The notes below the pieces were generated by a model that was not told where the DNA came from, did not search any database, and saw nothing but the letters and a program-made list of their open reading frames with translations. Below, in pieces: positions 1 to 14,723 of a stretch of DNA of 24,000 nucleotides (its first letter is position 1; the number at the start of each line of letters is the position of its first letter). The position numbers and the translations under genes were made by a program. The stretch lies in NCBI RefSeq assembly GCF_000020385.1, contig NC_010814.1, positions 3,748,553 to 3,772,552 of the forward strand. Reading direction: 5' to 3'. This DNA is from Trichlorobacter lovleyi SZ. GTDB taxonomy: Bacteria > Desulfobacterota > Desulfuromonadia > Geobacterales > Pseudopelobacteraceae.

Positions 1-60
1 TGGTTTCTTGTCCCGGTGGTAAGCCTGGCGGATTTTACGGATGGATTCCACTAGCAGCAT
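1..60 (-). CDS. Truncated 5' end of a transposase-like gene that continues beyond the left edge; N-terminus resembles IS21-family IstA
   Basis: Minus-strand reading from 60 gives MLLVESIRKIRQAYHRDKKP, open to the window edge. An in-frame TGA 9 nt upstream bounds the start. AAAGGAG abuts ATG(60) and lies 9 nt before an in-frame GTG(51), so either could be the start. It is not in the ORF track because the window cuts it. The family call is from memory of IstA N-terminal HTH regions plus the terminal repeats at 118-179. Confidence 0.4.
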   Translation of the reverse strand, partial: MLLVESIRKIRQAYHRDKKP

Positions 61-117
61 CTCCTTTCAAAGCTCCTCTCTCTGGATGATGCCAAAGAGA
101 ATGGAGGAGGTGCTGAG

Positions 118-179
118 GTGGGTCAATTTTGGACGCCGATTACACCCGAAAGTGGGTCAATATTGCATGCCGATTCACA
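118..179. repeat. Two tandem imperfect direct repeats (candidate transposase-binding terminal repeats)
   Basis: 118-144 is GTGGGTCAATTTTGGACGCCGATTACA and 152-179 is GTGGGTCAATATTGCATGCCGATTCACA. They share GTGGGTCAAT...GCCGATT(C)ACA and are separated by 7 nt. Confidence 0.6.
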
Positions 180-182
180 TGC

Positions 183-211
183 GAGGCGCTGCAAAGCGCC
201 TCTGCTATTTT
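183..211 (+). terminator. GC-rich hairpin with a T-rich tail directly abutting the IS terminus
   Basis: GAGGCGC (183-189), a 6-nt loop, GCGCCTC (196-202), then TGCTATTTTC. No plus-strand gene precedes it in the window, so its function is unclear. Confidence 0.3.
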
Positions 212-626
212 CAGGCCTCCAAAACCACTGATTGCGAATCAGCACCCCAAAACTGGCACTCTTTTCCGCTGCCGGGGAGCCACGTCACATCATAGGCCAA
301 TACGGAAAACAGTCAGTTATTTCCTATCCTTCCATTTCTCCGCACTCAGAAAAAGTTGATTCGTAACCAAACCTCGGGGTCTTGTCAGCCCGCATGGAAG
401 AACCCCCAGGAAGGACCCGCACTATATATGGGGGTGCCAAATCAGCAGAACCCAACATATGGAAGCGCATCAAAAAAACAGATCAAGCCGGTTCGCTGCG
501 CAGGTTGTGTGGTTAGTATTCATTCTGGATAGGAGTAGCAGGGGTGTGCTGTGCCTGCCATGTGGCTACGTGAGGCAAACTTAAGGCGCGGGATGCCCTG
601 ATCATCTGGGGCGCGGGGGGAAGTGC

Positions 627-652
627 GAATAAAAGCCCCTCGGGTGGGGGGC
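627..652 (-). terminator. Rho-independent terminator of the TAC operon
   Basis: On the minus strand, after the SecB-like stop at 669, the sequence reads GCCCC-CCACCCGA-GGGGC followed by TTTTATT. Confidence 0.6.
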
Positions 653-668
653 AAGGAAGAGTTACTTA

Positions 669-1100
669 TTATTTTCCGGAATGGTTTTGTTTGTAGATAT
701 CATAAAAATTGACTGGTGGTAACAATAGAGGCGTAAACCCACCCCGCCTGGTTAGATCAGCAACCACTTCACGCAGGAATGGAAAAAGAATTGAAGCGCA
801 GTTGATCTCTGCAACATGATCAATCTGATCTTTCTCACTGAGTGCAGTTTTGAAGGTAAAGATTCCGCCCATTGACACGTCAAGGCTAAACGGAGAGTTA
901 TCCCCTGATACATTTACCGTGAGAGCAAGATTGATTGAGCTGTTTGATTCCTGCCAGGCGTGTTTAATCGTGATCCTGGTATCAATAGATATTTCTTCTT
1001 GTGAATCAACTCGCTGGTTTGCAGTAAAGTTGGCCGACAGCACGCGATAATCTGTCAGACTGAACTGATACATCTCTGGCGTTTGTTTAACCTTGGGCAT
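669..1100 (-). CDS. SecB-like chaperone (third gene of the toxin-antitoxin-chaperone module)
   Basis: FSLDVSMGGIFTFK...INCASILFPFLREVVADLTRRGGFTPLLLPPVNFYDIY aligns block for block with E. coli SecB FLCEVQQGGIFSIA...[37 protein letters not shown]. I place the start at ATG 1100 (MPKVKQ...) because the track start 1184 is a TTG. The product is 143 aa, typical SecB size. It overlaps the antitoxin 3' end by 14 nt. Confidence 0.8.
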   Translation of the reverse strand: MPKVKQTPEMYQFSLTDYRVLSANFTANQRVDSQEEISIDTRITIKHAWQESNSSINLALTVNVSGDNSPFSLDVSMGGIFTFKTALSEKDQIDHVAEINCASILFPFLREVVADLTRRGGFTPLLLPPVNFYDIYKQNHSGK

Positions 1101-1434
1101 GACGATATACCTGTTGATCACGGACTGCTCGATAAGCGATGCTAACAACTTTTGAAACAGCCTCAGAGACAGGCTCCACTGCAAGAGTTGGGGTAAACTT
1201 CAATCCTACAGCCCTTGAAAGCATGACCATGCTCTCAATCGTAAGGTTGGCATCCCCAGACATGACTTTAGTGATATAAGCGGGGCTTTTACCGATACGC
1301 CGTGCCAAATCCGACTTAGAAACACCCTTCTCGGTCATAGCCTTGTTAAGTGAAGTAACGAATTCAAGCTTGGCCATTTCAGCCCAAAATTCATTACTCT
1401 GCATATCTTGCTTTATCAGTTTAACAACTGACAT
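1087..1434 (-). CDS. XRE/HigA-like HTH antitoxin with a C-terminal tail
   Basis: The motif GVSKSDLARRIGKSPAYITKVMSGDANLTIESMVMLSRAVG is a classic Cro/C1-XRE helix-turn-helix. The ATG at 1434 lies 5 nt after the toxin stop, and the toxin's last codons (GGAGGGTAA) supply the SD. About 35 aa after the HTH (TLAVEPVSEAVSKVVSIAYRAVRDQQVYRHAQG) have no obvious domain. Confidence 0.8.
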   Translation of the reverse strand: MSVVKLIKQDMQSNEFWAEMAKLEFVTSLNKAMTEKGVSKSDLARRIGKSPAYITKVMSGDANLTIESMVMLSRAVGLKFTPTLAVEPVSEAVSKVVSIAYRAVRDQQVYRHAQG

Positions 1435-1439
1435 TTTGA

Positions 1440-1853
1440 TTACCCTCCTGGAAGTTCTGTTACATTACTTCTGGCTTTTTGCAGCCGATAGTCACGCAAA
1501 GCCTCAGTTGCATGCCTAATAACTGCCAGCGGTGTCTTCTGGGTTTTCTTTACAAAGGCATGGCAGCACGCAACAATCTTGCCTTCATCGTAAAACCATA
1601 CCACTCTAATATGCCCTTTTCTGAACTGCCAAATATCAGTTGCAATTGTGTGACATATTTCAGGTGGCAAAAGTCTCGGACCATTTAACGCCACATAGGC
1701 AAATAGCCTCCTGATCGCCACGCCATCTTTTTCATAATTTGTAGGAAGGCTGGAAAGGAAATCATCAACCTGACATTCCGTTTGGCTTTCGCAGGTAGCA
1801 ACAACCTTCCAGGTGCTATTTAATTCGGTAGGTATCAGGCTTTTTATGAACAC
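1440..1853 (-). CDS. Gp49/HigB-like RelE-superfamily toxin
   Basis: IWQFRKGHIRVVWFYDEGKIVACCHAFVKKTQKTPLAVIRHATEAL matches the phage Gp49-like (DUF891)/HigB pattern ...fR.g.iRv.y....ivll..F.KKtqkTP..ei..A. The protein has no internal Met, so the start is GTG at 1853. Confidence 0.8.
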   Translation of the reverse strand: MFIKSLIPTELNSTWKVVATCESQTECQVDDFLSSLPTNYEKDGVAIRRLFAYVALNGPRLLPPEICHTIATDIWQFRKGHIRVVWFYDEGKIVACCHAFVKKTQKTPLAVIRHATEALRDYRLQKARSNVTELPGG

Positions 1854-1868
1854 TTTTAACCTATAGGT

Positions 1869-1897
1869 AAAATATCATTGTTAACTATTTTCTTCAA
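1869..1897 (-). promoter_or_regulatory. Sigma70-like promoter of the TAC operon with a palindrome in the spacer
   Basis: The minus strand reads TTGAAG, a 17-nt spacer (aaaatagttaacaatga) and TATTTT, ending about 15 nt upstream of GTG 1853. The spacer contains GTTAAC, a possible antitoxin operator. Confidence 0.45.
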
Positions 1898-1989
1898 CCG
1901 CACATATCGGTATTTTCAAGGGCGACACCACAACATATAGATGCACTTTTTTGACAAGACATGCACTAGAGCATAACTTCAATTATGGA

Positions 1990-3219
1990 TTATGCAAGCA
2001 CTTTACTTTTCTCTGGGGTCGCCAATTCGCCAGCGATCAGTTCCGTGATCCTGTCTGCAATTTTCTGCATCGGCTCACGCAACCGCTCCGTTGTGATCTG
2101 GATATACCCACCGGTGACATCATTCCCCATGCTGTGATTCAACAGCGCCTTCAGGCTGTAATGCGGCACGTCCAGGCCTTCAGCAATGGTGATGAAGGTG
2201 CGTCGCAGATCATGGAAACAGAACTGAACGCCAGATGCTGCGATTATATCCCGCTTGTAATTATCAGGATTACTCAGGAATGGTGCCGGGTGCTTGCCAG
2301 GAAAAATATATTCGTTCTCATACCCAGCCGCCCGGCGCTTCAACAGCAGCTTGTAGAGCTGCTCTGACATCGGCATGGTCACCTGATCATCTTCCGGCTT
2401 TTCACCCCGCTTCTTTTCAGGGGTAAAGGTAAAGGCCTTCCTCTTAAAATCAATATCAGACCATTTCAGTCGGGCCGCTTCATTACGCCTTAAACCGGTG
2501 TAGAGCAGCAACAGCATGTAATCCCGGCCCTTGGGGTTGTCGTAAGCATTCACCGCCTTAAACCATATTGGCAGGTCTTCAGGCTTGATAAAGGTGATGC
2601 GGCGCTTCTTCTTGGCCCAATCCCGTTCACGCACTTCCCGCACACCATCGACAGGGTTTCTGTGAATAACACCAGGGTGCAAGGCCAGCCCAAACCGGAA
2701 AAGGCTTCTAAGCAGCTTCACAGCGTTAATTGCCTGTGACTTGCCGTTGGTGATCTCCATCAGCTCCAGACGCTCCAGGACCATACTGCCGGTGATAGTG
2801 TCCGCTGGTAGTGTCAACCAGTCCTTGAAGTGATTCTCCATCCAGGCGGCATATTGCCGTATTGTTGCCGGGGCCAAGGTCTTCTTGGTAGACATATATT
2901 GACGGTGAAGGTCTGCAACGGTTATTGTCACTAACTTAGGTTGCCGGTCAGGGTGTGGATTAATGCCCTCTTTAAGCTTTTGAAGGTAGCCAGTAGCCTG
3001 TGCTCTGGCCTGTTCGCAGGTATAGAGACCAAAGGCCCCAATATGTATGAACGGCTTCTTGCTGGTGCCCCGCTGCCGAGCACGCACAAAAAAGGTCAAA
3101 GCCTCTTTTGTTGCCCTGACACCAAAACCGGCAAGCTCAGTATCAAAGTAATCAACCTGTCCAGCTGTCGGCTTGACTATCTCTTTCAGGTTGGCTTTGG
3201 TGATTTTTAGGCTTGGCAT
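1990..3219 (-). CDS. int: Tyrosine-type site-specific integrase (P4-like, with N-terminal arm-binding domain)
   Basis: N-terminus MPSLKITKANLKEI..GQVDYFDTELAGFGVRAT (DUF4102-type). Catalytic motifs are LLLYTGLRRNEA, FCFHDLRRTF and LLNHSMGNDVTGGYI (R...HxxR...Y). I chose ATG 3219, preceded by AGGGGGC, over the upstream ATG 3294 because homologues begin at MP.LK. Confidence 0.9.
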   Translation of the reverse strand: MPSLKITKANLKEIVKPTAGQVDYFDTELAGFGVRATKEALTFFVRARQRGTSKKPFIHIGAFGLYTCEQARAQATGYLQKLKEGINPHPDRQPKLVTITVADLHRQYMSTKKTLAPATIRQYAAWMENHFKDWLTLPADTITGSMVLERLELMEITNGKSQAINAVKLLRSLFRFGLALHPGVIHRNPVDGVREVRERDWAKKKRRITFIKPEDLPIWFKAVNAYDNPKGRDYMLLLLYTGLRRNEAARLKWSDIDFKRKAFTFTPEKKRGEKPEDDQVTMPMSEQLYKLLLKRRAAGYENEYIFPGKHPAPFLSNPDNYKRDIIAASGVQFCFHDLRRTFITIAEGLDVPHYSLKALLNHSMGNDVTGGYIQITTERLREPMQKIADRITELIAGELATPEKSKVLA

Positions 3220-3349: not shown

Positions 3350-6300
3350 ATGAAAATCAAACGACTTGAGATAGCCGGGTTTAAATCGTTTGCCGATAAG
3401 GTGGTACTGGATTTCCAGCAGGGGGTGACCGGCGTGGTAGGCCCCAACGGCTGCGGCAAATCCAACATTGTGGATGCGATGCGCTGGTGTATGGGGGAGC
3501 AATCCGCCAAGAACCTGCGCGGCAAGGCGATGGAAGACATCATCTTTGCAGGCAGCGACAGCAGGAAACCGTTGGGGATGGCAGAGGTTTCGCTTGTTTT
3601 TTCCACCGAAGACGGACGCGCCCCGGCCAAATATCTGGAATTTAGCGAGATACAGCTGACCCGTCGCCTCTATCGTGATGGCGAGAGTGAATACCTGATC
3701 AACAAGACCCCCTGCCGCCTGCTGGATATCTCGGAGCTGTTCATGGATACCGGGGTGGGCACCAAGGCCTATTCAATCATCGAGCAAGGCAAGATCGGCC
3801 AGATTCTGCATTCACGTCCTGAAGAACGGCGCCTGCTGATTGAAGAGGCCGCCGGCGTTACCAAATACAAGACCAGAAAACAGCTTGCCCTGAAAAAGAT
3901 CGAAGCCACCCGCCAGAACCTGCTGCGGCTGGCAGATGTACTCGGCGAGATCAAGCGACAGCTCAACAGCCTGCAGCGCCAAGCCAAAAAGGCGGAAAAA
4001 TTCCGGGAATACCGTGAAGAGCTGCGGGAGATCGACCTGCAGTTCACCCTGCACCAGGCCTCAACGCTGCAGCACGATCAGCACCAGGCCGAGCAGCAGC
4101 TGGCGGAACTGAAAAACCGGATGCAGGAGATAGTAACGGCAGCCGACACAGCAGACAATCAGGTGGAACTGCAGCGCCTGGCCATGCTGGAAGCCGAAAA
4201 GGCATTAAACATCCAACAGGAAGAACAGTTCCGGTTTCGCAGCGAAGCCGCTGCCTGTGAAAGCGACCTGAACTTCTGCCGCAAAGAGCGCGACGCCATT
4301 GCAGAACGGCTGACCAGACTGGTGGCCGAGCTTCAAACCATCTCCCTGCAGAGAGATGCACTTGCAACAGAACTGACCAACCTGCTCCAGCTGCAGCAGA
4401 CGACCGGCAGTGATCTGCTTACGGCGGAAACAGAACTGGCCGGCCTGCTTGAGGGTCATAAAGAACAGGAACAGCGCTATGAAGAGCTGAACCGGCAGCT
4501 TGATGCAAAACGCAGAGAGCTGTTCAGCGCAACCGGTGAGGCAACCCACTGCCGTACCCGTCATGAACAGGCACAGAAACGCCTGGTCATGCTGGCAGAG
4601 CGCCTTGAACGCCACACACGGGAAGAAGCCCAGCTGATTGAAAAGCAGGCCGAAAACGCAGCCAGCCACACAAAGGTTGAAGCGGAATGGCGGCACTGCA
4701 CCCTTGAGCATCAAGCGGCAACAACCGAGCTTGCTCGGCTTACCGAGCAGGAGCGGGTGCTGAAGGCGCAGCTGCCCGAGCTGGAACAGCTGGTGCAGAA
4801 CCGTCGTGATGCCTTGAGTCAAAACCGCTCCCGCCTGACATCACTACAGGAGCTTGAGGCCCAGTTTGCCGGCTACGGTCAGGGGGTACGTCTTTTAATG
4901 ACGGAATCACCGCTGCGGAGCCGCTTCGGAGGATTGCTGGCCGACAACCTGCTGGTGCCCGAGGAGTACGAGGTTGCTGTTGAGGCGGTACTGGCTGAAC
5001 GTCTGCAAACAATCCTGTGCGGATCAGAGCAGGAACTGATCAGCTCAATCCAGTATCTTCGACAGCACTCTGCAGGACGCGCCCAGCTGACCTTTCCCGC
5101 CGGCAACACACCACCCCGCACCACCAGTGAGATTATCGGTGCACCAGACCTCCTCTCGCTGGTGGAGGTCAATGACAATGCCAGGCTGCCGGTACAGCGG
5201 ATGCTTGCCCAGGTGCTCCTGGCGAACAGTCTTGAAGAGGCCCTGGCCTATTCCCGCCGCTATCCGGAACAGACCTTTGTCACCAGAGAGGGTGATGTTG
5301 TTGCACCCGACGGCACTGTCAGCGGCGGTTCAGTCGAGACCGCCCAGAATGGTATCATCCATAAAAAACGTGAAATCAGGTCGCTCGAGCTGCCGGTGGA
5401 AAACCTGCTGGCCGAACTGGAATCCTGCGAGTCCGAGCGGGACCGGGTACGCGCCGATCTGCAGGGTGCGGCTCAAGAACTGCTGCAGGCACGCAGCAAC
5501 CTGCATCAGCTCGATCTGACCCTGACAGGGCTGGTCAAGGACCGGCAGCAACTTGAGGCTCAGTCGGCCCAGCTTGCTGAACGACTCAAGCTGTTAGTGC
5601 TTGAACGTTCCACGCTTGACGAAGAGCAGTGCCTACTGCAGGAAGAACAGAAAAGCGCCGCGATCGGCCAGGAGGCTGCAGAACTTCAGGCCAGACAACT
5701 TGAGCAGGAATCCCGCGGCATTACTGCCGAGATCGAGGGGCAGCGCCTGATCCTGGCTACGGCACGCGAGACCCTGACCACACAACGGGTCACCGTTGCC
5801 ACCCTCCGGGAGCAGGGCGAGGCCCATCAGCGCACCAGGGCCTCCCTTACAGCCCAACTGGATGAGCATGAGCGCAGAATCAAAAACGGTGCGGACGAAC
5901 AGGAGCAATCCGAGAACAACCGCCAAGAGCTGCATAACCGGATAGAATCCGAGGAGATCCGTCTTGCAGCCCTGCTTGAACAGCAACGCCGGCAGGATGA
6001 ACTGCTGCTGCTTGTCAGAAAACAGTACGAGACAGCGGCAGCAGAGCTAACCACGGCAGAACATGATGCACGCCTGCGTCGCGACGAACGCGAGGCGATC
6101 CGCCAGCTGCATGCCGACCTGTCGCTGAAGGTCTCATCGCTCACCCTGCAGCGGGAACACCTTGAGCAGTCCCTGCAAGACCGCCACCGGATCGGCCTGT
6201 CCGAGGTGCGGGAGCGCCTGGGTGAACAGACGCTGGACCCTGTGGTTGCGCGGGTCCGCCAGACCGACCTTGAACGGCTGATCGACGAGTTGGGTGAAGT

Positions 6301-6883
6301 TAACCTGATGGCCATCGAAGAGTATGCCGGCATGGAACAGCGCTATGATTTTCTTGCCTCGCAGAAATCAGACCTTGAAGAATCGCTGCAGGATCTGCAA
6401 CAGGCGATCCACCGCATCAACCGCACCACCCGCAAACGCTTCCTTGAGGCCTTTACCCTGATCAACGAAAAGTTCCAGGAGGTCTTTCCACGTCTGTTCT
6501 GCGGCGGCCGGGCAGAGCTGAAGCTGACCGACGAGCAGGATCTGCTGGAGACCGGTATCGACATCATCGTCCAGCCTCCCGGCAAAAAGCTGGCCAATGT
6601 GATGCTGCTGTCAGGAGGCGAAAAGGCGCTGACCGCTGTTGCCTTGATCTTCTCGATCTTTTTGATCAAGCCGACGCCGTTCTGTCTGCTTGACGAGGTT
6701 GATGCCCCGCTGGACGATGCAAACATCGGGCGTTTCAACGACATGGTGCGTGAGATGAGCGCCATATCCCAATTCATCATTATCACGCACAACAAAACCA
6801 CCATGGCGGTTGCCGACACACTGTACGGCGTCACCATGGAAGAGCCGGGGGCGTCGCGACTGGTGTCTGTACGATTGCATTAG
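3350..6883 (+). CDS. smc: Chromosome segregation protein SMC
   Basis: 1177 aa. N-terminus MKIKRLEIAGFKSF with Walker A GPNGCGKSN, long coiled coils and a hinge. C-terminal signature LSGGEKALTAVALIFSIF and Walker B LLDEVDAPLD. Confidence 0.97.
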   Translation: MKIKRLEIAGFKSFADKVVLDFQQGVTGVVGPNGCGKSNIVDAMRWCMGEQSAKNLRGKAMEDIIFAGSDSRKPLGMAEVSLVFSTEDGRAPAKYLEFSEIQLTRRLYRDGESEYLINKTPCRLLDISELFMDTGVGTKAYSIIEQGKIGQILHSRPEERRLLIEEAAGVTKYKTRKQLALKKIEATRQNLLRLADVLGEIKRQLNSLQRQAKKAEKFREYREELREIDLQFTLHQASTLQHDQHQAEQQLAELKNRMQEIVTAADTADNQVELQRLAMLEAEKALNIQQEEQFRFRSEAAACESDLNFCRKERDAIAERLTRLVAELQTISLQRDALATELTNLLQLQQTTGSDLLTAETELAGLLEGHKEQEQRYEELNRQLDAKRRELFSATGEATHCRTRHEQAQKRLVMLAERLERHTREEAQLIEKQAENAASHTKVEAEWRHCTLEHQAATTELARLTEQERVLKAQLPELEQLVQNRRDALSQNRSRLTSLQELEAQFAGYGQGVRLLMTESPLRSRFGGLLADNLLVPEEYEVAVEAVLAERLQTILCGSEQELISSIQYLRQHSAGRAQLTFPAGNTPPRTTSEIIGAPDLLSLVEVNDNARLPVQRMLAQVLLANSLEEALAYSRRYPEQTFVTREGDVVAPDGTVSGGSVETAQNGIIHKKREIRSLELPVENLLAELESCESERDRVRADLQGAAQELLQARSNLHQLDLTLTGLVKDRQQLEAQSAQLAERLKLLVLERSTLDEEQCLLQEEQKSAAIGQEAAELQARQLEQESRGITAEIEGQRLILATARETLTTQRVTVATLREQGEAHQRTRASLTAQLDEHERRIKNGADEQEQSENNRQELHNRIESEEIRLAALLEQQRRQDELLLLVRKQYETAAAELTTAEHDARLRRDEREAIRQLHADLSLKVSSLTLQREHLEQSLQDRHRIGLSEVRERLGEQTLDPVVARVRQTDLERLIDELGEVNLMAIEEYAGMEQRYDFLASQKSDLEESLQDLQQAIHRINRTTRKRFLEAFTLINEKFQEVFPRLFCGGRAELKLTDEQDLLETGIDIIVQPPGKKLANVMLLSGGEKALTAVALIFSIFLIKPTPFCLLDEVDAPLDDANIGRFNDMVREMSAISQFIIITHNKTTMAVADTLYGVTMEEPGASRLVSVRLH

Positions 6884-9869: not shown

Positions 9870-11435
9870 ATGATAACCAGTATCGTCATGGCGTTGGTGA
9901 TCGTTGCGGTCGCCGGTGTAGCGTATGTCGCAGGCAACCGTTTTGGACGCAAAAGCACTGAGGGACTTGTAGCTCAGGCGGAAGAGTTGGCAGCACGCCT
10001 GCTTGAAGATGCCCGTCGTGAAGCAGACAACATCGCAAAAGAGGCTGAACTGAAGGCAAAGAACGCGGCCCTTGAAGCTAAAGAGGCTGCTGAAGGTGAA
10101 TTAAAAGAAAAAAAGCGTGAAATTCAGGTACAGGAAAAAAGGATACAGCAGAAGGAAGAGCATCTGGACAAAAAATCAGCTCTGGTCGACCAAAAAGAGA
10201 TGGACCTGCTGAAGAAAGAACAGTCCGTATCTACAAAAGAACAGGCATTAGCCGCAAAGGAAGATGAACTGACAAAGGCCGCTAGTGAGCAGCGTGCCCG
10301 ACTTGAGCAGATCTCCGGCATGTCCGCAGAAGAGGCAAAAAACACACTGATTGAAGCGATGGAGAGTGAGGCCAAGCATGACGCGGCCAAACGGATCAAA
10401 CTGATTGAGGAAGAAGCCAAGGAAACTGCTGACAAGAAGGCAAAGGAGATCATCGCAGCGGCGATTCAACGTTATGCCGGCGAGTATGTCTCTGAAAAAT
10501 GCGTCTCAGTGGTACCGCTGCCGTCTGATGAAATGAAAGGCCGGATTATCGGGCGTGAAGGCCGCAACATCCGTGCACTGGAGGCTGCCACCGGTATAGA
10601 CCTGATCATTGATGACACCCCTGAAGCGGTAATCCTGTCCGGCTTCAACCCGGTCCGCCGTGAGGTTGCCCGTCTGTCGCTGGAAAAACTGCTGGCCGAT
10701 GGCCGGATTCATCCGGGCCGGATCGAAGAGGTGGTTGCAAAATCTGAAGAAGAGGTTGAAAAGGCGATCAAGGAGGCTGGCGAACAGGCCGCCTTTGACC
10801 TGGGTGTACATGGCATCCATCCTGAGGTGCTCAAGCTGATCGGCCGCCTCAAATACCGCACCTCGTACACTCAGAACGTCTATCAACACTCCCTTGAAGT
10901 TGCCTTCCTGTGCGGTATCATGGCCGCCGAACTGGGGATCAACGTCAAGCAGGCCAAGCGGGCCGGCCTGCTGCATGACCTGGGCAAGGCGGTTGACCAT
11001 GAGGTTGAAGGTTCCCATGCCGTCATCGGCGCTGATCTGGCACGTAAATACGGGGAATCACCAAAGATTGTCCATGCCATTGCGGCTCACCATGAAGACG
11101 AAAAACCCTCCACGATCCTGGCGGTACTGGTACAGGCAGCCGATGCCCTCTCCGGGGCACGCCCGGGTGCACGGCGCGAGATGATGGAATCCTATGTCAA
11201 GCGGCTGGAAGACCTGGAGCGGATCGCCACCTCCTTTAACGGTGTCAGCGGTTCCTTTGCCATCCAGGCCGGTCGCGAGATCCGGGTCATGGTCTCCAGC
11301 GATCAGGTTTCCGACGAACAATCGGTACTGCTGGCACGGGATATTGCCAAAAAGATCGAGAGCGAGATGACCTACCCCGGCATGATCAAGGTCAATGTGA
11401 TTCGTGAAACGCGCGCCACAGAGTTTGCACGGTAA
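9870..11435 (+). CDS. rny: Ribonuclease Y
   Basis: N-terminal TM helix [21 protein letters not shown], a lysine/glutamate-rich coiled coil, KH domain [15 protein letters not shown] and HD domain HSLEVA...LLHDLGK. GGAAGGAGG precedes ATG 9870. The track extension from 9807 overlaps the previous gene. Confidence 0.95.
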
Positions 11436-13515: not shown

Positions 13516-14526
13516 TCAGTAATTCACCGTTGCCATGATGCTCATCTTTAGATAGTTTGCACCCTGGGTCGGCGGGTCTGCCGAGCCGTAATAGGTGTCA
13601 CCTGTAGCCGACAATGTCGTTGTTGTCCCGGAATAGTAAAACCCGATGTATTCTCCGGCATTGATGAAGACCGAAGGAAATGTGACCGTCACCAATCCGG
13701 TTGAAGTAATTGCGACATCGGAGCTTGAACGCAGTGTTTTATGGGTACTGTCCTTGATCAGCAGCCTGAAGGTACCGGTTGAATTCACACGAATATCAAC
13801 CGATGAGATGGTACCTGCATGGGGGGCCATATACCCGGTAAAATAGTACATATTCGAATTGAAACCCGAAGTGCCGCTGGTCTGGCCCAGAAGATCCTGC
13901 TGGACAATGGCAACGGTGTTCCAGGCCGTACCGTTGTAGAAGTTGAGCATTTTATCCGTGGTGTTATAGATCATCAGCCCGGCCGGCGGCGAAGCGATGG
14001 CATTACGCTGCGCCGTGGTCAGCCGTGGCGGCAGGAAACCTTTACTGGTGGAAGTGACATCCAGCGCGGCAGCCGTGGCAGGCGAACTTACTCCGATCCC
14101 GAGCGAGCCGTTTGTATAGACCGCATTAGCACCGTTCAAGGTAAAGGGACTGGCACCGGTATCACCCTTAAGCCCCTGAACACCTTGAGGGCCTTGGACC
14201 CCCTGAGCCCCGGTTGCACCGGTATCACCCTTGGGGCCCTGTGGTCCCACCAACGCCACCCCCGCCCCCCAGCTCCCGGTGTAGGGGCCGTAGAGCAGAT
14301 TGTTGGCAGTATCGATATAAAAGTCACCGGGATTGGCAACCACATTGTTCACAACCGGTGAGCCGCTGCCGTTCAGGACACTCTTGCCGTCCTTGGGAGC
14401 CCTGGTAATGAAACTGCCGTCAGGAAAGTACAACGCATCATTTGAAATCATGAAGGCACCCTCTGCAGCCAATAAAGCAGATGGCAGGACAGACAGCACC
14501 AGCGCAACAACAAGTCGCTTTAGCAT
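13516..14526 (-). CDS. Secreted collagen-like triple-helix repeat protein with tail-fibre-like flanking domains
   Basis: Signal peptide MLKRLVVALVLSVLPSALLAAEG, with ATG 14526 preceded by AGGGGTG. GDFYIDTANNLLYGPYTGSWG is followed by an uninterrupted G-X-Y run GPQGPKGDTGATGAQGVQGPQGVQGLKGDTGA. Then comes GFLPPRLTTAQRNAIASPPAGLMIYNTTDKMLNFYNGTAWNTV and a roughly 120-aa beta-rich C-terminal domain. The track start 14706 adds 60 aa without a signal peptide. Confidence 0.8.
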   Translation of the reverse strand: MLKRLVVALVLSVLPSALLAAEGAFMISNDALYFPDGSFITRAPKDGKSVLNGSGSPVVNNVVANPGDFYIDTANNLLYGPYTGSWGAGVALVGPQGPKGDTGATGAQGVQGPQGVQGLKGDTGASPFTLNGANAVYTNGSLGIGVSSPATAAALDVTSTSKGFLPPRLTTAQRNAIASPPAGLMIYNTTDKMLNFYNGTAWNTVAIVQQDLLGQTSGTSGFNSNMYYFTGYMAPHAGTISSVDIRVNSTGTFRLLIKDSTHKTLRSSSDVAITSTGLVTVTFPSVFINAGEYIGFYYSGTTTTLSATGDTYYGSADPPTQGANYLKMSIMATVNY

Positions 14527-14723
14527 ACAAACACCCCTAAGATTGATTACAGTACACGGTGATCCGGCCTCAGCCTGCCGGTTACAACAGCTTTGGATAT
14601 AAAGTCGTATAGTACCACAAGTTACCTGTCTGTCCAGACTTGCCATTTTGCTCGAAAATATGAGCGCCCTTTGGTAGGGTGTGGTGAAGGTACCGGCACA
14701 TTTCAAGATTCCCGAGGTATCGA

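What the first reader, a model, noticed from the sequence alone, without database searches (positions are those of the whole stretch)
669..1897. Tripartite toxin-antitoxin-chaperone (TAC) module with a SecB-like chaperone on a mobile island
Three tightly packed minus-strand genes occur in the order toxin, antitoxin, chaperone. They are a Gp49/HigB-like toxin (1440-1853), an XRE-HTH antitoxin (1087-1434) and a protein matching SecB across its whole conserved core (669-1100). The antitoxin's SD lies inside the toxin's last codons, and its 3' end overlaps the chaperone start by 14 nt. This is the same order and family composition as the M. tuberculosis HigB1-HigA1-Rv1957 TAC system. There, the antitoxin carries a C-terminal chaperone-addiction segment and is only stable when bound by the dedicated SecB. 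Here the antitoxin also has about 35 extra residues after the HTH (…VSKVVSIAYRAVRDQQVYRHAQG) that could play that role. The module is AT-rich relative to the host and has its own promoter with a GTTAAC palindrome and its own terminator. It sits next to an integrase, so it is probably horizontally acquired. It may act as an addiction or abortive-infection cassette.
Basis: partly seen in the sequence, partly recalled or inferred. Interest (0 to 1): 0.7.

Follow-up and report, generated by a model that had tools for sequence, protein, structure and literature searches.

The report
Known Geobacter lovleyi toxin-antitoxin-chaperone operon
The three genes are a real toxin-antitoxin-chaperone (TAC) module, but it is the Geobacter lovleyi 'Glov-TAC' operon that was cloned and shown to work this way in 2016, so it is a correct rediscovery and not a new finding.

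Summary
Three packed minus-strand genes encode:
- a Gp49/HigB toxin (1440-1853; Pfam 8.6e-18);
- an XRE-HTH antitoxin with a 35-residue tail (1087-1434);
- a SecB-fold protein (669-1100; Pfam 3.3e-23, below every housekeeping-SecB cut-off).

The 14-nt overlap, the SD inside the toxin's last codons, the low GC, the terminator and the neighbouring integrase are all present.

The three proteins are identical to ACD97195/4/3 of Trichlorobacter (Geobacter) lovleyi SZ. All seven primers that Bordes et al. 2016 (PMC5105189) used for Glov_3492/3491/3490 match the window exactly, and both amplicon sizes agree. That paper shows that:
- the antitoxin neutralises the toxin in E. coli only when the cognate chaperone is present;
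- E. coli SecB cannot substitute;
- antitoxin residues 86-115 are a transferable chaperone-addiction (ChAD) segment.

Two corrections:
- The GTTAAC palindrome is not conserved in sister elements; the flanking -35/-10 hexamers are.
- The 'island' is a prophage-like element inserted beside smc. In this strain an insertion sequence cuts it 490 nt beyond the chaperone.

The natural role is still untested. It could be phage exclusion, as shown for E. coli HigBAC, or prophage maintenance.

Verdict: already known, low interest.

The parts
1440..1853 (-). higB-type toxin gene (Glov_3492; ACD97195.1), 137 aa, GTG start
   Evidence: ORF. Pfam Gp49 8.6e-18. The only PDB sequence hit is S. pneumoniae HigB 6af3, 3.7e-5. 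Exact sequence found in T. lovleyi SZ. Published primer TGlovFOR matches 1850-1831. The GTG start and N-terminus are conserved in sister loci.
1087..1434 (-). higA-type XRE-HTH antitoxin gene (Glov_3491; ACD97194.1), 115 aa
   Evidence: Pfam HTH_3 1e-8 over residues 31-80. Weak HigA equivalog hit. Exact sequence found in T. lovleyi SZ. Reverse primer AGlovREV matches 1087-1110. The interval 1087-1853 is 767 nt, the size of the published amplicon.
1090..1179 (-). Chaperone-addiction (ChAD) segment, antitoxin residues 86-115: VEPVSEAVSKVVSIAYRAVRDQQVYRHAQG
   Evidence: Primer C1GlovFORFusion matches 1179-1158 and TAGlov-RevFusion matches 1180-1201, so the published graft boundary is at residue 85/86. 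PMC5105189 states that ChAD is aa 86-115 and is transferable. The tail is conserved in close homologues. More distant HigA-type TAC antitoxins keep a tail with a hydrophobic/aromatic patch.
669..1100 (-). SecB-like TAC chaperone gene (Glov_3490; ACD97193.1), 143 aa
   Evidence: Pfam SecB 3.3e-23. Scores 41.6-75.3 bits against NCBIfam secB equivalog cut-offs of 102.8-277. AlphaFold2 model pLDDT 87.7 with four strands and a long helix. Foldseek top hits are H. influenzae and E. coli SecB, then Mtb SecB-TA/ChAD 5mtw. PADLOC PD-T4-9_C 1.7e-15. Primers match 1100-1078 and 669-693, giving the published 432-nt gene length.
1443..1448 (-). Shine-Dalgarno GGAGGG for the antitoxin, inside the last toxin codons
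   Evidence: Read directly from the sequence. It lies 8 nt upstream of the ATG at 1434.
1869..1897 (-). Promoter-like TTGAAG-17 nt-TATTTT. GTTAAC (1880-1885) lies in the spacer.
   Evidence: Both hexamers are invariant in four sister loci that are about 75% identical overall. The spacer that holds GTTAAC varies. The site was not flagged by the consensus scan because it matches only 8 of 12 positions. Function is inferred.
1897..1911 (-). Conserved ACCG-N7-CGGT inverted repeat abutting the -35; candidate HigA operator
   Evidence: The block ACCGATATGTGCGGT is conserved in all five aligned upstream regions, with one substitution in L008. Operator function is inferred only.
625..652 (-). Intrinsic-terminator-like hairpin GCCCC-N8-GGGGC followed by TTTTATT
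   Evidence: Terminator scan. It begins 17 nt after the chaperone stop codon.
1990..3219 (-). Tyrosine integrase of the element that carries the TAC (409 aa)
   Evidence: Pfam Arm-DNA-bind_3 and Phage_integrase. PHROG integrase 2.8e-52 for the 97%-identical L089 copy. The start at 3219 comes from the gene call in the 100%-identical L090. It lies next to smc (3350-6883).

Best explanation
This is the Glov-TAC operon of Trichlorobacter (Geobacter) lovleyi SZ, genes Glov_3492-3491-3490. It is a type II HigBA toxin-antitoxin pair that depends on a dedicated SecB-like chaperone.

**How it works**
- One transcript encodes all three proteins.
- The HigA antitoxin carries a C-terminal chaperone-addiction (ChAD) tail, residues 86-115. 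This tail prevents the antitoxin from neutralising the toxin unless the cognate SecB-like chaperone is present.
- By analogy with other TACs, the tail makes the antitoxin aggregation-prone or unstable until the chaperone tetramer binds it. This has not been measured for Glov-HigA.
- The chaperone-bound antitoxin then neutralises the HigB/Gp49 toxin.
- The toxin is inferred to be a ribosome-dependent mRNA endonuclease that blocks translation.
- If the chaperone is titrated away or lost, the antitoxin fails and the toxin arrests growth.

**Shown and inferred**
- Shown by published experiments in E. coli for this locus: chaperone dependence, ChAD transferability and partner specificity.
- Inferred: the RNase activity, autoregulation at the promoter and the natural trigger.

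**Likely role**
The operon sits just inside the integrase end of a prophage-like element inserted beside smc. Its most likely natural role is therefore phage exclusion or abortive infection, and/or maintenance of the element.
For: **Identity**
- The three proteins are exact matches to ACD97195.1, ACD97194.1 and ACD97193.1 of T. lovleyi ATCC BAA-1151, on a 3,917,761-bp contig.
- All seven Glov primers from PMC5105189 match once each, at the expected gene ends and at the ChAD boundary.
- The 767-nt and 432-nt amplicon sizes agree with the window.

**Function (PMC5105189)**
- No non-cognate chaperone, and not E. coli SecB, controls Glov-HigBA.
- Grafting Glov-ChAD (aa 86-115) onto Mtb-HigA1 transfers dependence to the Glov chaperone.

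**Families and fold**
- Gp49, HTH_3 and SecB domain hits.
- The toxin's only PDB sequence hit is a HigB.
- The chaperone model has the SecB fold and matches 5mtw.

**Synteny**
- int-Gp49-HTH-SecB beside smc recurs in the metagenome contigs where that flank is present (L001, L002, L004, L008, L089, L090). These are 75-100% identical to the window at the nucleotide level.
- In 80 genome loci that encode relatives of the chaperone, the upstream genes are mostly MqsA (43 of 76) and MqsR (37 of 71). Five loci carry Gp49 toxins.

**Prophage context**
- The same element carries a cI-like repressor, an excisionase-like HTH, a DUF927 primase, a major capsid/protease, a tail chaperone and a tape measure protein.

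**Antiphage precedent**
- E. coli HigBAC and CmdTAC defend against phage.
- The chaperone hits PADLOC PD-T4-9_C.
Against: - All functional data come from overexpression in E. coli. Nothing has been tested in the native host.
- The toxin's RNase activity and target have not been measured for this protein. No sequence-level match to the Mtb HigB1 structures was found at E<=1.
- Whether the genome has a separate housekeeping secB could not be checked. The source genome was not returned by the genome scan.
- There is no evidence on what triggers the system. The C-terminus (AQG) lacks the Val-Ala/Ala-Ala ClpXP degron described for Mtb HigA1 and CmdA, so antitoxin turnover may differ.
- In strain SZ an insertion sequence interrupts the element 490 nt beyond the chaperone, so the prophage may be defective.
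Confidence: 0.95

Rival explanations
1. The SecB-like gene is the organism's general protein-export chaperone and merely sits next to an ordinary two-gene HigBA module. On this reading there is no functional dependence between them.
For: - NCBI and UniRef name the protein 'protein-export chaperone SecB'.
- Its closest solved structures by sequence and fold are the E. coli and H. influenzae export SecB.
- Whether another secB exists in the genome could not be checked.
Against: - It scores 41.6-75.3 bits against NCBIfam secB equivalog cut-offs of 102.8-277.
- Its start overlaps the antitoxin gene by 14 nt.
- It lies in an AT-rich prophage-like element.
- Relatives are overwhelmingly linked to TA pairs, whereas housekeeping copies in the same scan sit next to fxsA.
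- The published assay shows Glov-HigA cannot neutralise Glov-HigB without it, and E. coli SecB cannot replace it.
Confidence: 0.02
2. The module works as a TAC, but its natural role is addiction. Cells that lose the prophage-like element are killed or arrested post-segregationally. On this reading it is not a phage defence.
For: - The module is the first cargo next to the integrase and is retained in every copy of the element examined, while the adjacent slot varies.
- TA modules on mobile elements classically stabilise them (general knowledge; Sala et al. 2013 note addictive properties and horizontal-transfer signatures).
Against: - There are no stability data.
- The two TACs tested for biological role in the papers read here (E. 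coli HigBAC and CmdTAC) act as phage defences.
- The neighbouring variable slot holds nucleases and other TA pairs (NYN, HSDR_N-like, BrnTA), which resembles a defence hotspot.
- The two roles are not mutually exclusive.
Confidence: 0.3
3. The module is a stress-responsive growth regulator or persistence switch of the host, as originally proposed for the M. tuberculosis TAC. On this reading the toxin is released when the chaperone is titrated by unfolded host proteins under stress.
For: This is the model proposed for Mtb-TAC in Sala et al. 2013/2014. SecB-type chaperones bind unfolded clients broadly.
Against: - There are no data for this organism.
- Location on a horizontally acquired prophage-like element argues for an element-centred function and against a host-centred one.
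- In the heterologous cross-tests, no non-cognate chaperone controlled Glov-HigBA, and the Glov chaperone controlled only one non-cognate pair (Vcho-MqsRA).
Confidence: 0.1

Closest known systems
Glov-TAC (Glov_3492/3491/3490) of Geobacter lovleyi ATCC BAA-1151, Bordes et al. 2016, Nat Commun 7:13339 (PMC5105189)
   Same: It is the same locus. The proteins are identical. All seven published primers match, and both amplicon sizes and the ChAD boundary agree.
   Different: Nothing differs at the sequence level. Two things appear to be additions: the prophage context and the IS interruption, neither of which appeared in the Glov passages retrieved from that paper (the figure schematic was not viewable). 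No other paper in the searchable library mentions the locus.
M. tuberculosis TAC: HigB1-HigA1-SecB-TA (Rv1955-Rv1956-Rv1957)
   Same: Same gene order (T-A-C) and the same family composition according to the authors: a HigBA pair plus a SecB-like chaperone. The antitoxin has a C-terminal ChAD. The chaperone has the SecB fold, and Foldseek matches 5mtw with TM about 0.7.
   Different: - The chaperones are only 19% identical, and neither works with the other's antitoxin.
- phmmer did not link the chaperone (at E<=0.01) or the toxin (at E<=1) to the Mtb structures.
- The ChAD here is 30 residues, has no sequence similarity to the Mtb ChAD, and ends in AQG, not in the Val-Ala ClpXP degron.
- E. coli SecB can rescue Mtb-HigBA1 but not Glov-HigBA.
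E. coli NT1F31 HigBAC antiphage TAC (Mets et al. 2024, bioRxiv 10.1101/2024.02.24.581848)
   Same: It is a HigB-HigA-SecB-like operon carried on a prophage in a variable accessory locus. ChAD recognition involves aromatic residues, and the Glov tail has Y101 and Y110 in a hydrophobic patch.
   Different: - The E. coli ChAD is 96 residues with four aromatic motifs that wrap around the tetramer. The Glov ChAD is 30 residues.
- Phage protection, and triggering by the lambda gpV tail protein, are shown there and untested here.
CmdTAC / PD-T4-9 and MqsRAC-type TACs
   Same: The chaperone matches PADLOC PD-T4-9_C at 1.7e-15. Its nearest genomic relatives (30-44% identity) sit behind MqsR-MqsA pairs. 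The Glov chaperone can control the V. cholerae MqsRA TAC.
   Different: The toxin and antitoxin families differ. Those systems use an ADP-ribosyltransferase or MqsR toxin, where this one uses Gp49/HigB. The antitoxin there is a zinc-ribbon MqsA, where here it is a small XRE protein.
Housekeeping export chaperone SecB (E. coli, H. influenzae)
   Same: Same fold, with a conserved helix-1 motif (NCASILFPFLRE...) and 21-25% identity.
   Different: It is below all equivalog cut-offs. It is not in a housekeeping context. It is dedicated to an antitoxin, and E. coli SecB cannot substitute for it. Interaction with SecA is not tested.

Membership tests
TAC (toxin-antitoxin-chaperone) system | Three adjacent co-oriented genes in one operon, with the SecB-like gene directly after the antitoxin gene | tested here: met
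   The order is T-A-C on the minus strand, with a 5-nt gap between toxin and antitoxin and a 14-nt overlap between antitoxin and chaperone. The arrangement is conserved in sister loci.
TAC (toxin-antitoxin-chaperone) system | Chaperone is a SecB homologue (PF02556, SecB fold) | tested here: met
   Pfam SecB, 82.6 bits against a cut-off of 26. AlphaFold2 model pLDDT 87.7. Foldseek matches SecB and 5mtw at E of 5e-9 to 5e-7.
TAC (toxin-antitoxin-chaperone) system | TA pair belongs to one of the associated type II families (HigBA, MqsRA, HicAB) | tested here: met
   Toxin is Gp49/HigB. Antitoxin is XRE HTH_3 with a weak HigA equivalog hit. Bordes et al. class the pair as HigBA.
TAC (toxin-antitoxin-chaperone) system | Antitoxin carries a C-terminal extension (ChAD) beyond its DNA-binding/toxin-binding domain | tested here: met
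   HTH_3 ends at residue 80 of 115. A tail is present in all HigA-type TAC antitoxins aligned. The published ChAD is aa 86-115.
TAC (toxin-antitoxin-chaperone) system | Toxin neutralisation by the antitoxin requires the cognate chaperone, and dependence is conferred by the ChAD | not testable with these tools
   Not computable here, but published for this exact locus. Growth-rescue assays were done in E. coli W3110 delta-secB with ChAD-swap chimeras (PMC5105189, Fig. 4 and Suppl. Fig. 5).
Housekeeping protein-export SecB (NCBIfam equivalogs TIGR00809, NF00439x) | Score reaches the curated equivalog cut-off | tested here: not met
   The best score is 75.3 bits against a cut-off of 143. TIGR00809 gives 62.9 against 102.8.
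Housekeeping protein-export SecB (NCBIfam equivalogs TIGR00809, NF00439x) | Housekeeping genomic context and SecA-dependent export function | tested here: inconclusive
   The context is a prophage-like element, not a housekeeping operon. Housekeeping relatives in the same scan sit beside fxsA. SecA interaction, complementation and the presence of a second secB in the genome could not be tested.
HigB/Gp49 (PF05973) RelE-superfamily toxins | Domain match above the gathering score | tested here: met
   64.6 bits against 23.9, covering profile positions 1-89 of 90. PDB hit to HigB 6af3.
HigB/Gp49 (PF05973) RelE-superfamily toxins | Ribosome-dependent mRNA cleavage | not tested
   Toxicity in E. 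coli is published. The biochemical activity of this protein is not.
Antiphage TAC (E. coli HigBAC / CmdTAC type) | Encoded on a prophage or defence locus | tested here: met
   The element carries an integrase, a repressor, an excisionase-like protein, a primase, a capsid protein and a tape measure protein. A variable nuclease/TA slot lies next to the TAC.
Antiphage TAC (E. coli HigBAC / CmdTAC type) | Protects against phage, with the chaperone titrated by a phage protein | not testable with these tools
   There are no data for this system. Only the chaperone matches a PADLOC model (PD-T4-9_C). The toxin does not match CmdT.

The most novel reading that the evidence does not exclude
Glov-TAC is a prophage-encoded superinfection-exclusion or abortive-infection system of Geobacteraceae. 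Its SecB-like chaperone would act as the sensor: a structural protein of an incoming phage competes with the short 30-residue ChAD for the chaperone and so frees HigB. The int-proximal locus of this smc-adjacent prophage family would then be a defence hotspot, with the TAC as the constant member and a swappable second slot holding an NYN nuclease, an HSDR_N-like protein or BrnTA.
Probability: 0.35. Interest if true: 0.35.

Novelty: already known. Interest (0 to 1): 0.1.

Why it matters
It matters little as a discovery. The system, its mechanism and its ChAD segment were published in 2016 for this exact locus, and TACs are now an established class that includes antiphage examples.

The check has three uses:
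- It shows that the first-stage reader can recover a real, experimentally validated tripartite system from raw sequence.
- It flags that public databases still call the chaperone a 'protein-export chaperone SecB'.
- It places Glov-TAC inside a prophage-like element. This gives a concrete, testable reason to ask whether it is a phage-defence module in Geobacteraceae, a group with few characterised defence systems.

Tried and rejected
- **Genome scan for the source organism.** It did not return T. lovleyi itself; the best hit was 43% identical. Organism identity therefore rests on the exact-protein look-up and the primer matches. Literature searches gave nothing on SecB in Geobacter.
- **tRNA and Rfam scans of the window.** Neither found an RNA gene that could serve as the integration target.
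- **Plasmid search with window 1-260.** This aimed to find the IS on the G. lovleyi plasmid. There was no match.
- **Viral-contig scan with the chaperone alignment.** It found only about 30%-identical SecB-like genes, not this element. The phage-collection protein search returned mostly housekeeping-type secB in mis-binned or large records.
- **GTTAAC palindrome as operator.** Rejected, because it is not conserved.
- **Housekeeping SecB beside an ordinary HigBA pair.** Rejected on the cut-offs, the gene overlap, the context and the published dependence.
- **CmdTAC membership.** Rejected, because only the chaperone matches.
- **Not done.** I did not use the second structure job or a further large protein search on the antitoxin, because the published ChAD mapping already answers that question.
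Full report
**Observation**

The minus strand of 669-1897 holds three tightly packed ORFs exactly as described:
- a 137-aa ORF with a GTG start (1440-1853);
- a 115-aa ORF (1087-1434);
- a 143-aa ORF starting at the ATG at 1100 (669-1100).

The antitoxin stop codon (1087-1089) lies 14 nt inside the chaperone ORF. A GGAGGG Shine-Dalgarno sequence (1448-1443) sits in the last codons of the toxin gene.

| Gene | Pfam family | E-value | Bits | Cut-off |
|---|---|---|---|---|
| Toxin | Gp49 | 8.6e-18 | 64.6 | 23.9 |
| Antitoxin | HTH_3 (residues 31-80 of 115) | 1e-8 | 35.5 | 23 |
| Chaperone | SecB | 3.3e-23 | 82.6 | 26 |

Further support:
- The toxin's only sequence match in the PDB is the S. pneumoniae HigB toxin 6af3.
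- The chaperone scores 41.6-75.3 bits against the NCBIfam housekeeping-SecB equivalogs, whose cut-offs are 102.8-277. It is SecB-like but does not qualify as an orthologue of the export chaperone.
- An AlphaFold2 model (pLDDT 87.7) has the four-stranded sheet and long helix of SecB. Its best PDB matches are H. influenzae and E. coli SecB, followed by the M. tuberculosis SecB-TA/ChAD complex 5mtw.
- GC is 41-47% across 500-2000, against 55-65% over most of the window.
- A hairpin plus T-run follows the chaperone at 652-635.
- The next gene is a tyrosine integrase, which abuts smc (3350-6883).

**What it is**

A literature search for TAC systems led to Bordes et al. 2016 (PMC5105189). That paper used a 'Glov-TAC' from Geobacter lovleyi ATCC BAA-1151 / DSM 17278 as its HigBA-type representative. 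The evidence that the window holds this locus is as follows.
- Each of the seven primer sequences listed there for Glov_3492, Glov_3491 and Glov_3490 matches the window once. The matches fall exactly at the toxin start, the antitoxin end, both chaperone ends and the ChAD graft boundary.
- The stated amplicon lengths equal 1087-1853 (767 nt) and 669-1100 (432 nt).
- Independently, an exact-sequence look-up finds the three proteins as ACD97195.1, ACD97194.1 and ACD97193.1 of Trichlorobacter lovleyi strain ATCC BAA-1151, on a 3,917,761-bp contig.

The window is therefore this organism's chromosome, and the finding is Glov-TAC itself.

**How it works**

The paper reports the following:
[quoted passage not shown] - Replacing the Mtb-HigA1 ChAD with Glov-HigA residues 86-115 transfers dependence to the Glov chaperone.
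- Replacing the Glov tail with the Mtb ChAD makes Glov-HigBA depend on Mtb-SecB-TA.

Residues 86-115 are VEPVSEAVSKVVSIAYRAVRDQQVYRHAQG. They contain a hydrophobic patch with two tyrosines (Y101, Y110). Close homologues conserve this sequence. More distant HigA-type TAC antitoxins keep a tail of 30-50 residues with a hydrophobic/aromatic patch and a near-C-terminal tyrosine. This fits the aromatic-pocket recognition seen in the Mtb complex and in E. coli HigBAC.

Three steps remain inferred for this protein:
- the toxin's ribosome-dependent RNase activity, by family;
- autoregulation at the promoter;
- the way the antitoxin is inactivated. The C-terminus lacks the Val-Ala/Ala-Ala ClpXP degron.

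**Promoter detail**

The consensus scan did not flag a promoter upstream of the toxin. An alignment with four sister loci, about 75% identical overall, shows that TTGAAG (1897-1892) and TATTTT (1874-1869) are invariant and 17 nt apart. So is a block ACCGATATGTGCGGT just upstream. The ACCG-N7-CGGT repeat is the better candidate, but this is inference.

**Surroundings**

The same int-toxin-antitoxin-chaperone block, inserted beside smc, recurs in metagenome contigs at 75-100% nucleotide identity to the window. The toxin gene is intact in all of them, although gene callers missed it in two because of the GTG start.

Longer contigs show the rest of the element. After the TAC come:
- a variable slot holding an NYN nuclease, or DUF4160/DUF2442 plus BrnT/BrnA, or an HSDR_N-like protein;
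- a divergent cI-like repressor and an excisionase-like HTH;
- a DUF927 primase;
- a major capsid/protease;
- a tail-assembly chaperone;
- a tape measure protein.

The 'mobile island' is therefore a prophage-like element. The TAC occupies the integrase-proximal accessory locus. This parallels E. coli HigBAC, which sits in a variable defence locus of a lambdoid prophage.

In strain SZ the element looks different beyond the TAC:
- The variable slot is empty. Homology to L089 stops at 249.
- A conserved hairpin follows at 211-180.
- From 179 to the window edge lies the end of an insertion sequence. It has two 24-nt direct repeats and an ORF starting at 60.

The rest of the window is housekeeping: ftsY, a 5-FTHF cyclo-ligase, RNase Y, ymdB, tyrS and ABC transporters. 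It contains no tRNA, no Rfam hit and no second SecB gene.

**Family-level picture**

A scan of species-representative genomes with the chaperone alignment returned 80 loci, mostly from Thermodesulfobacteriota and Nitrospirota.
- Of the 76 genes directly upstream of the chaperone gene, 43 are MqsA antitoxins and about 12 are FxsA. The FxsA cases are the housekeeping secB context of Hyphomicrobiales.
- In the toxin position, 37 are MqsR and five others are Gp49.

This matches the published view that TAC chaperones combine with different TA families and spread horizontally. It also matches the finding that the Glov chaperone can control a V. cholerae MqsRA pair. The chaperone hits the PADLOC model for the chaperone of PD-T4-9, now called CmdTAC.

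**Comparison and novelty**

The locus is identical to the published Glov-TAC. Relative to the M. tuberculosis paradigm it shares gene order, family composition and the ChAD principle. It differs in the following ways:
- The chaperones are only 19% identical.
- There is no cross-function between the two systems.
- The ChAD is shorter and unrelated in sequence.
- It cannot be rescued by E. coli SecB.
- It lacks the ClpXP degron.

Only one paper in the searchable library mentions the locus, and the Glov passages retrieved from it say nothing about the prophage context. That context is therefore a small addition. The biological role is open: phage exclusion with the chaperone as sensor, as shown for E. 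coli HigBAC, or maintenance of the element.

**What could not be done**

The genome scan did not return the source genome. The presence of a separate housekeeping secB in T. lovleyi, and the far end of the prophage, therefore remain unchecked. No multimer prediction was available.

**Verdict**

Novelty is 'already known' and interest is low (0.1). The most novel reading still open is that this is a prophage-borne defence module in Geobacteraceae (probability about 0.35). Even then it would be a new member of a mechanism already shown in E. coli.

Noticed in passing
window 1-179 (minus strand reading 179->1): End of an insertion sequence. It begins TGTGAATCGG... and has two 24-nt direct repeats (175-152 and 141-118). 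An ORF starts at 60 (MLLVESIRKIRQAYHRDKKP...) and runs off the window. The same end is 95% identical in a Nitrospirota MAG (L056 14817-14753). It also occurs in another T. lovleyi strain (L090), 194 nt further from the TAC. The architecture looks IS21-like, but this was not tested.
   Followed up: partly
window 180-249; L089 3902-4598; L091 1479-2186: The slot next to the TAC varies between copies of the element. It holds an NYN nuclease, or DUF4160/DUF2442 plus BrnT/BrnA, or an HSDR_N-like protein. In this strain it is empty. A conserved terminator-like hairpin (GAGGCGCTTTGCAGCGCCTC, 211-180) marks its far border in all versions. This looks like a cargo or defence hotspot.
   Followed up: partly
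L089 931-13481; L091; L001-L004, L008: The element carrying the TAC is prophage-like. It encodes an integrase, a cI-like repressor, an excisionase-like HTH_17 protein, a DUF927 primase, a major capsid/protease (Phage_capsid_4), a tail-assembly chaperone and a tape measure protein. In every contig where that flank is present (L001, L004, L008, L089, L090; L002 by alignment) it is inserted directly upstream of smc. No tRNA or known RNA gene is at the junction.
   Followed up: partly
window 1880-1911: The GTTAAC palindrome is not conserved among sister elements. The -35 and -10 hexamers and an upstream ACCG-N7-CGGT repeat (1911-1897) are invariant or nearly so. If TATTTT is the -10 element, the transcript would have a leader of only about 8-9 nt before the GTG start.
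   Followed up: partly
window 669-1100; NCBI and UniRef name this TAC chaperone 'protein-export chaperone SecB', although it is below every NCBIfam secB equivalog cut-off and has been shown experimentally to be antitoxin-dedicated. This is probably an over-annotation.
   Followed up: yes
L001 5249-5665; L008 5222-5638: Gene callers missed the toxin gene in two sister contigs, apparently because of its conserved GTG start. The ORFs are intact. Automated surveys could therefore score such loci as toxin-less 'AC' systems.
   Followed up: yes
window 13516-14706 (minus): A 396-aa ORF with no Pfam match at E<=1e-5 lies in a local GC dip (about 50%) between tyrS and a PUA-domain methyltransferase.
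   Followed up: no
window 10001-10500: Strong AT skew (0.44) and low GC (48%) inside the N-terminal region of the RNase Y gene. This is probably a charged coiled-coil coding bias.
   Followed up: no
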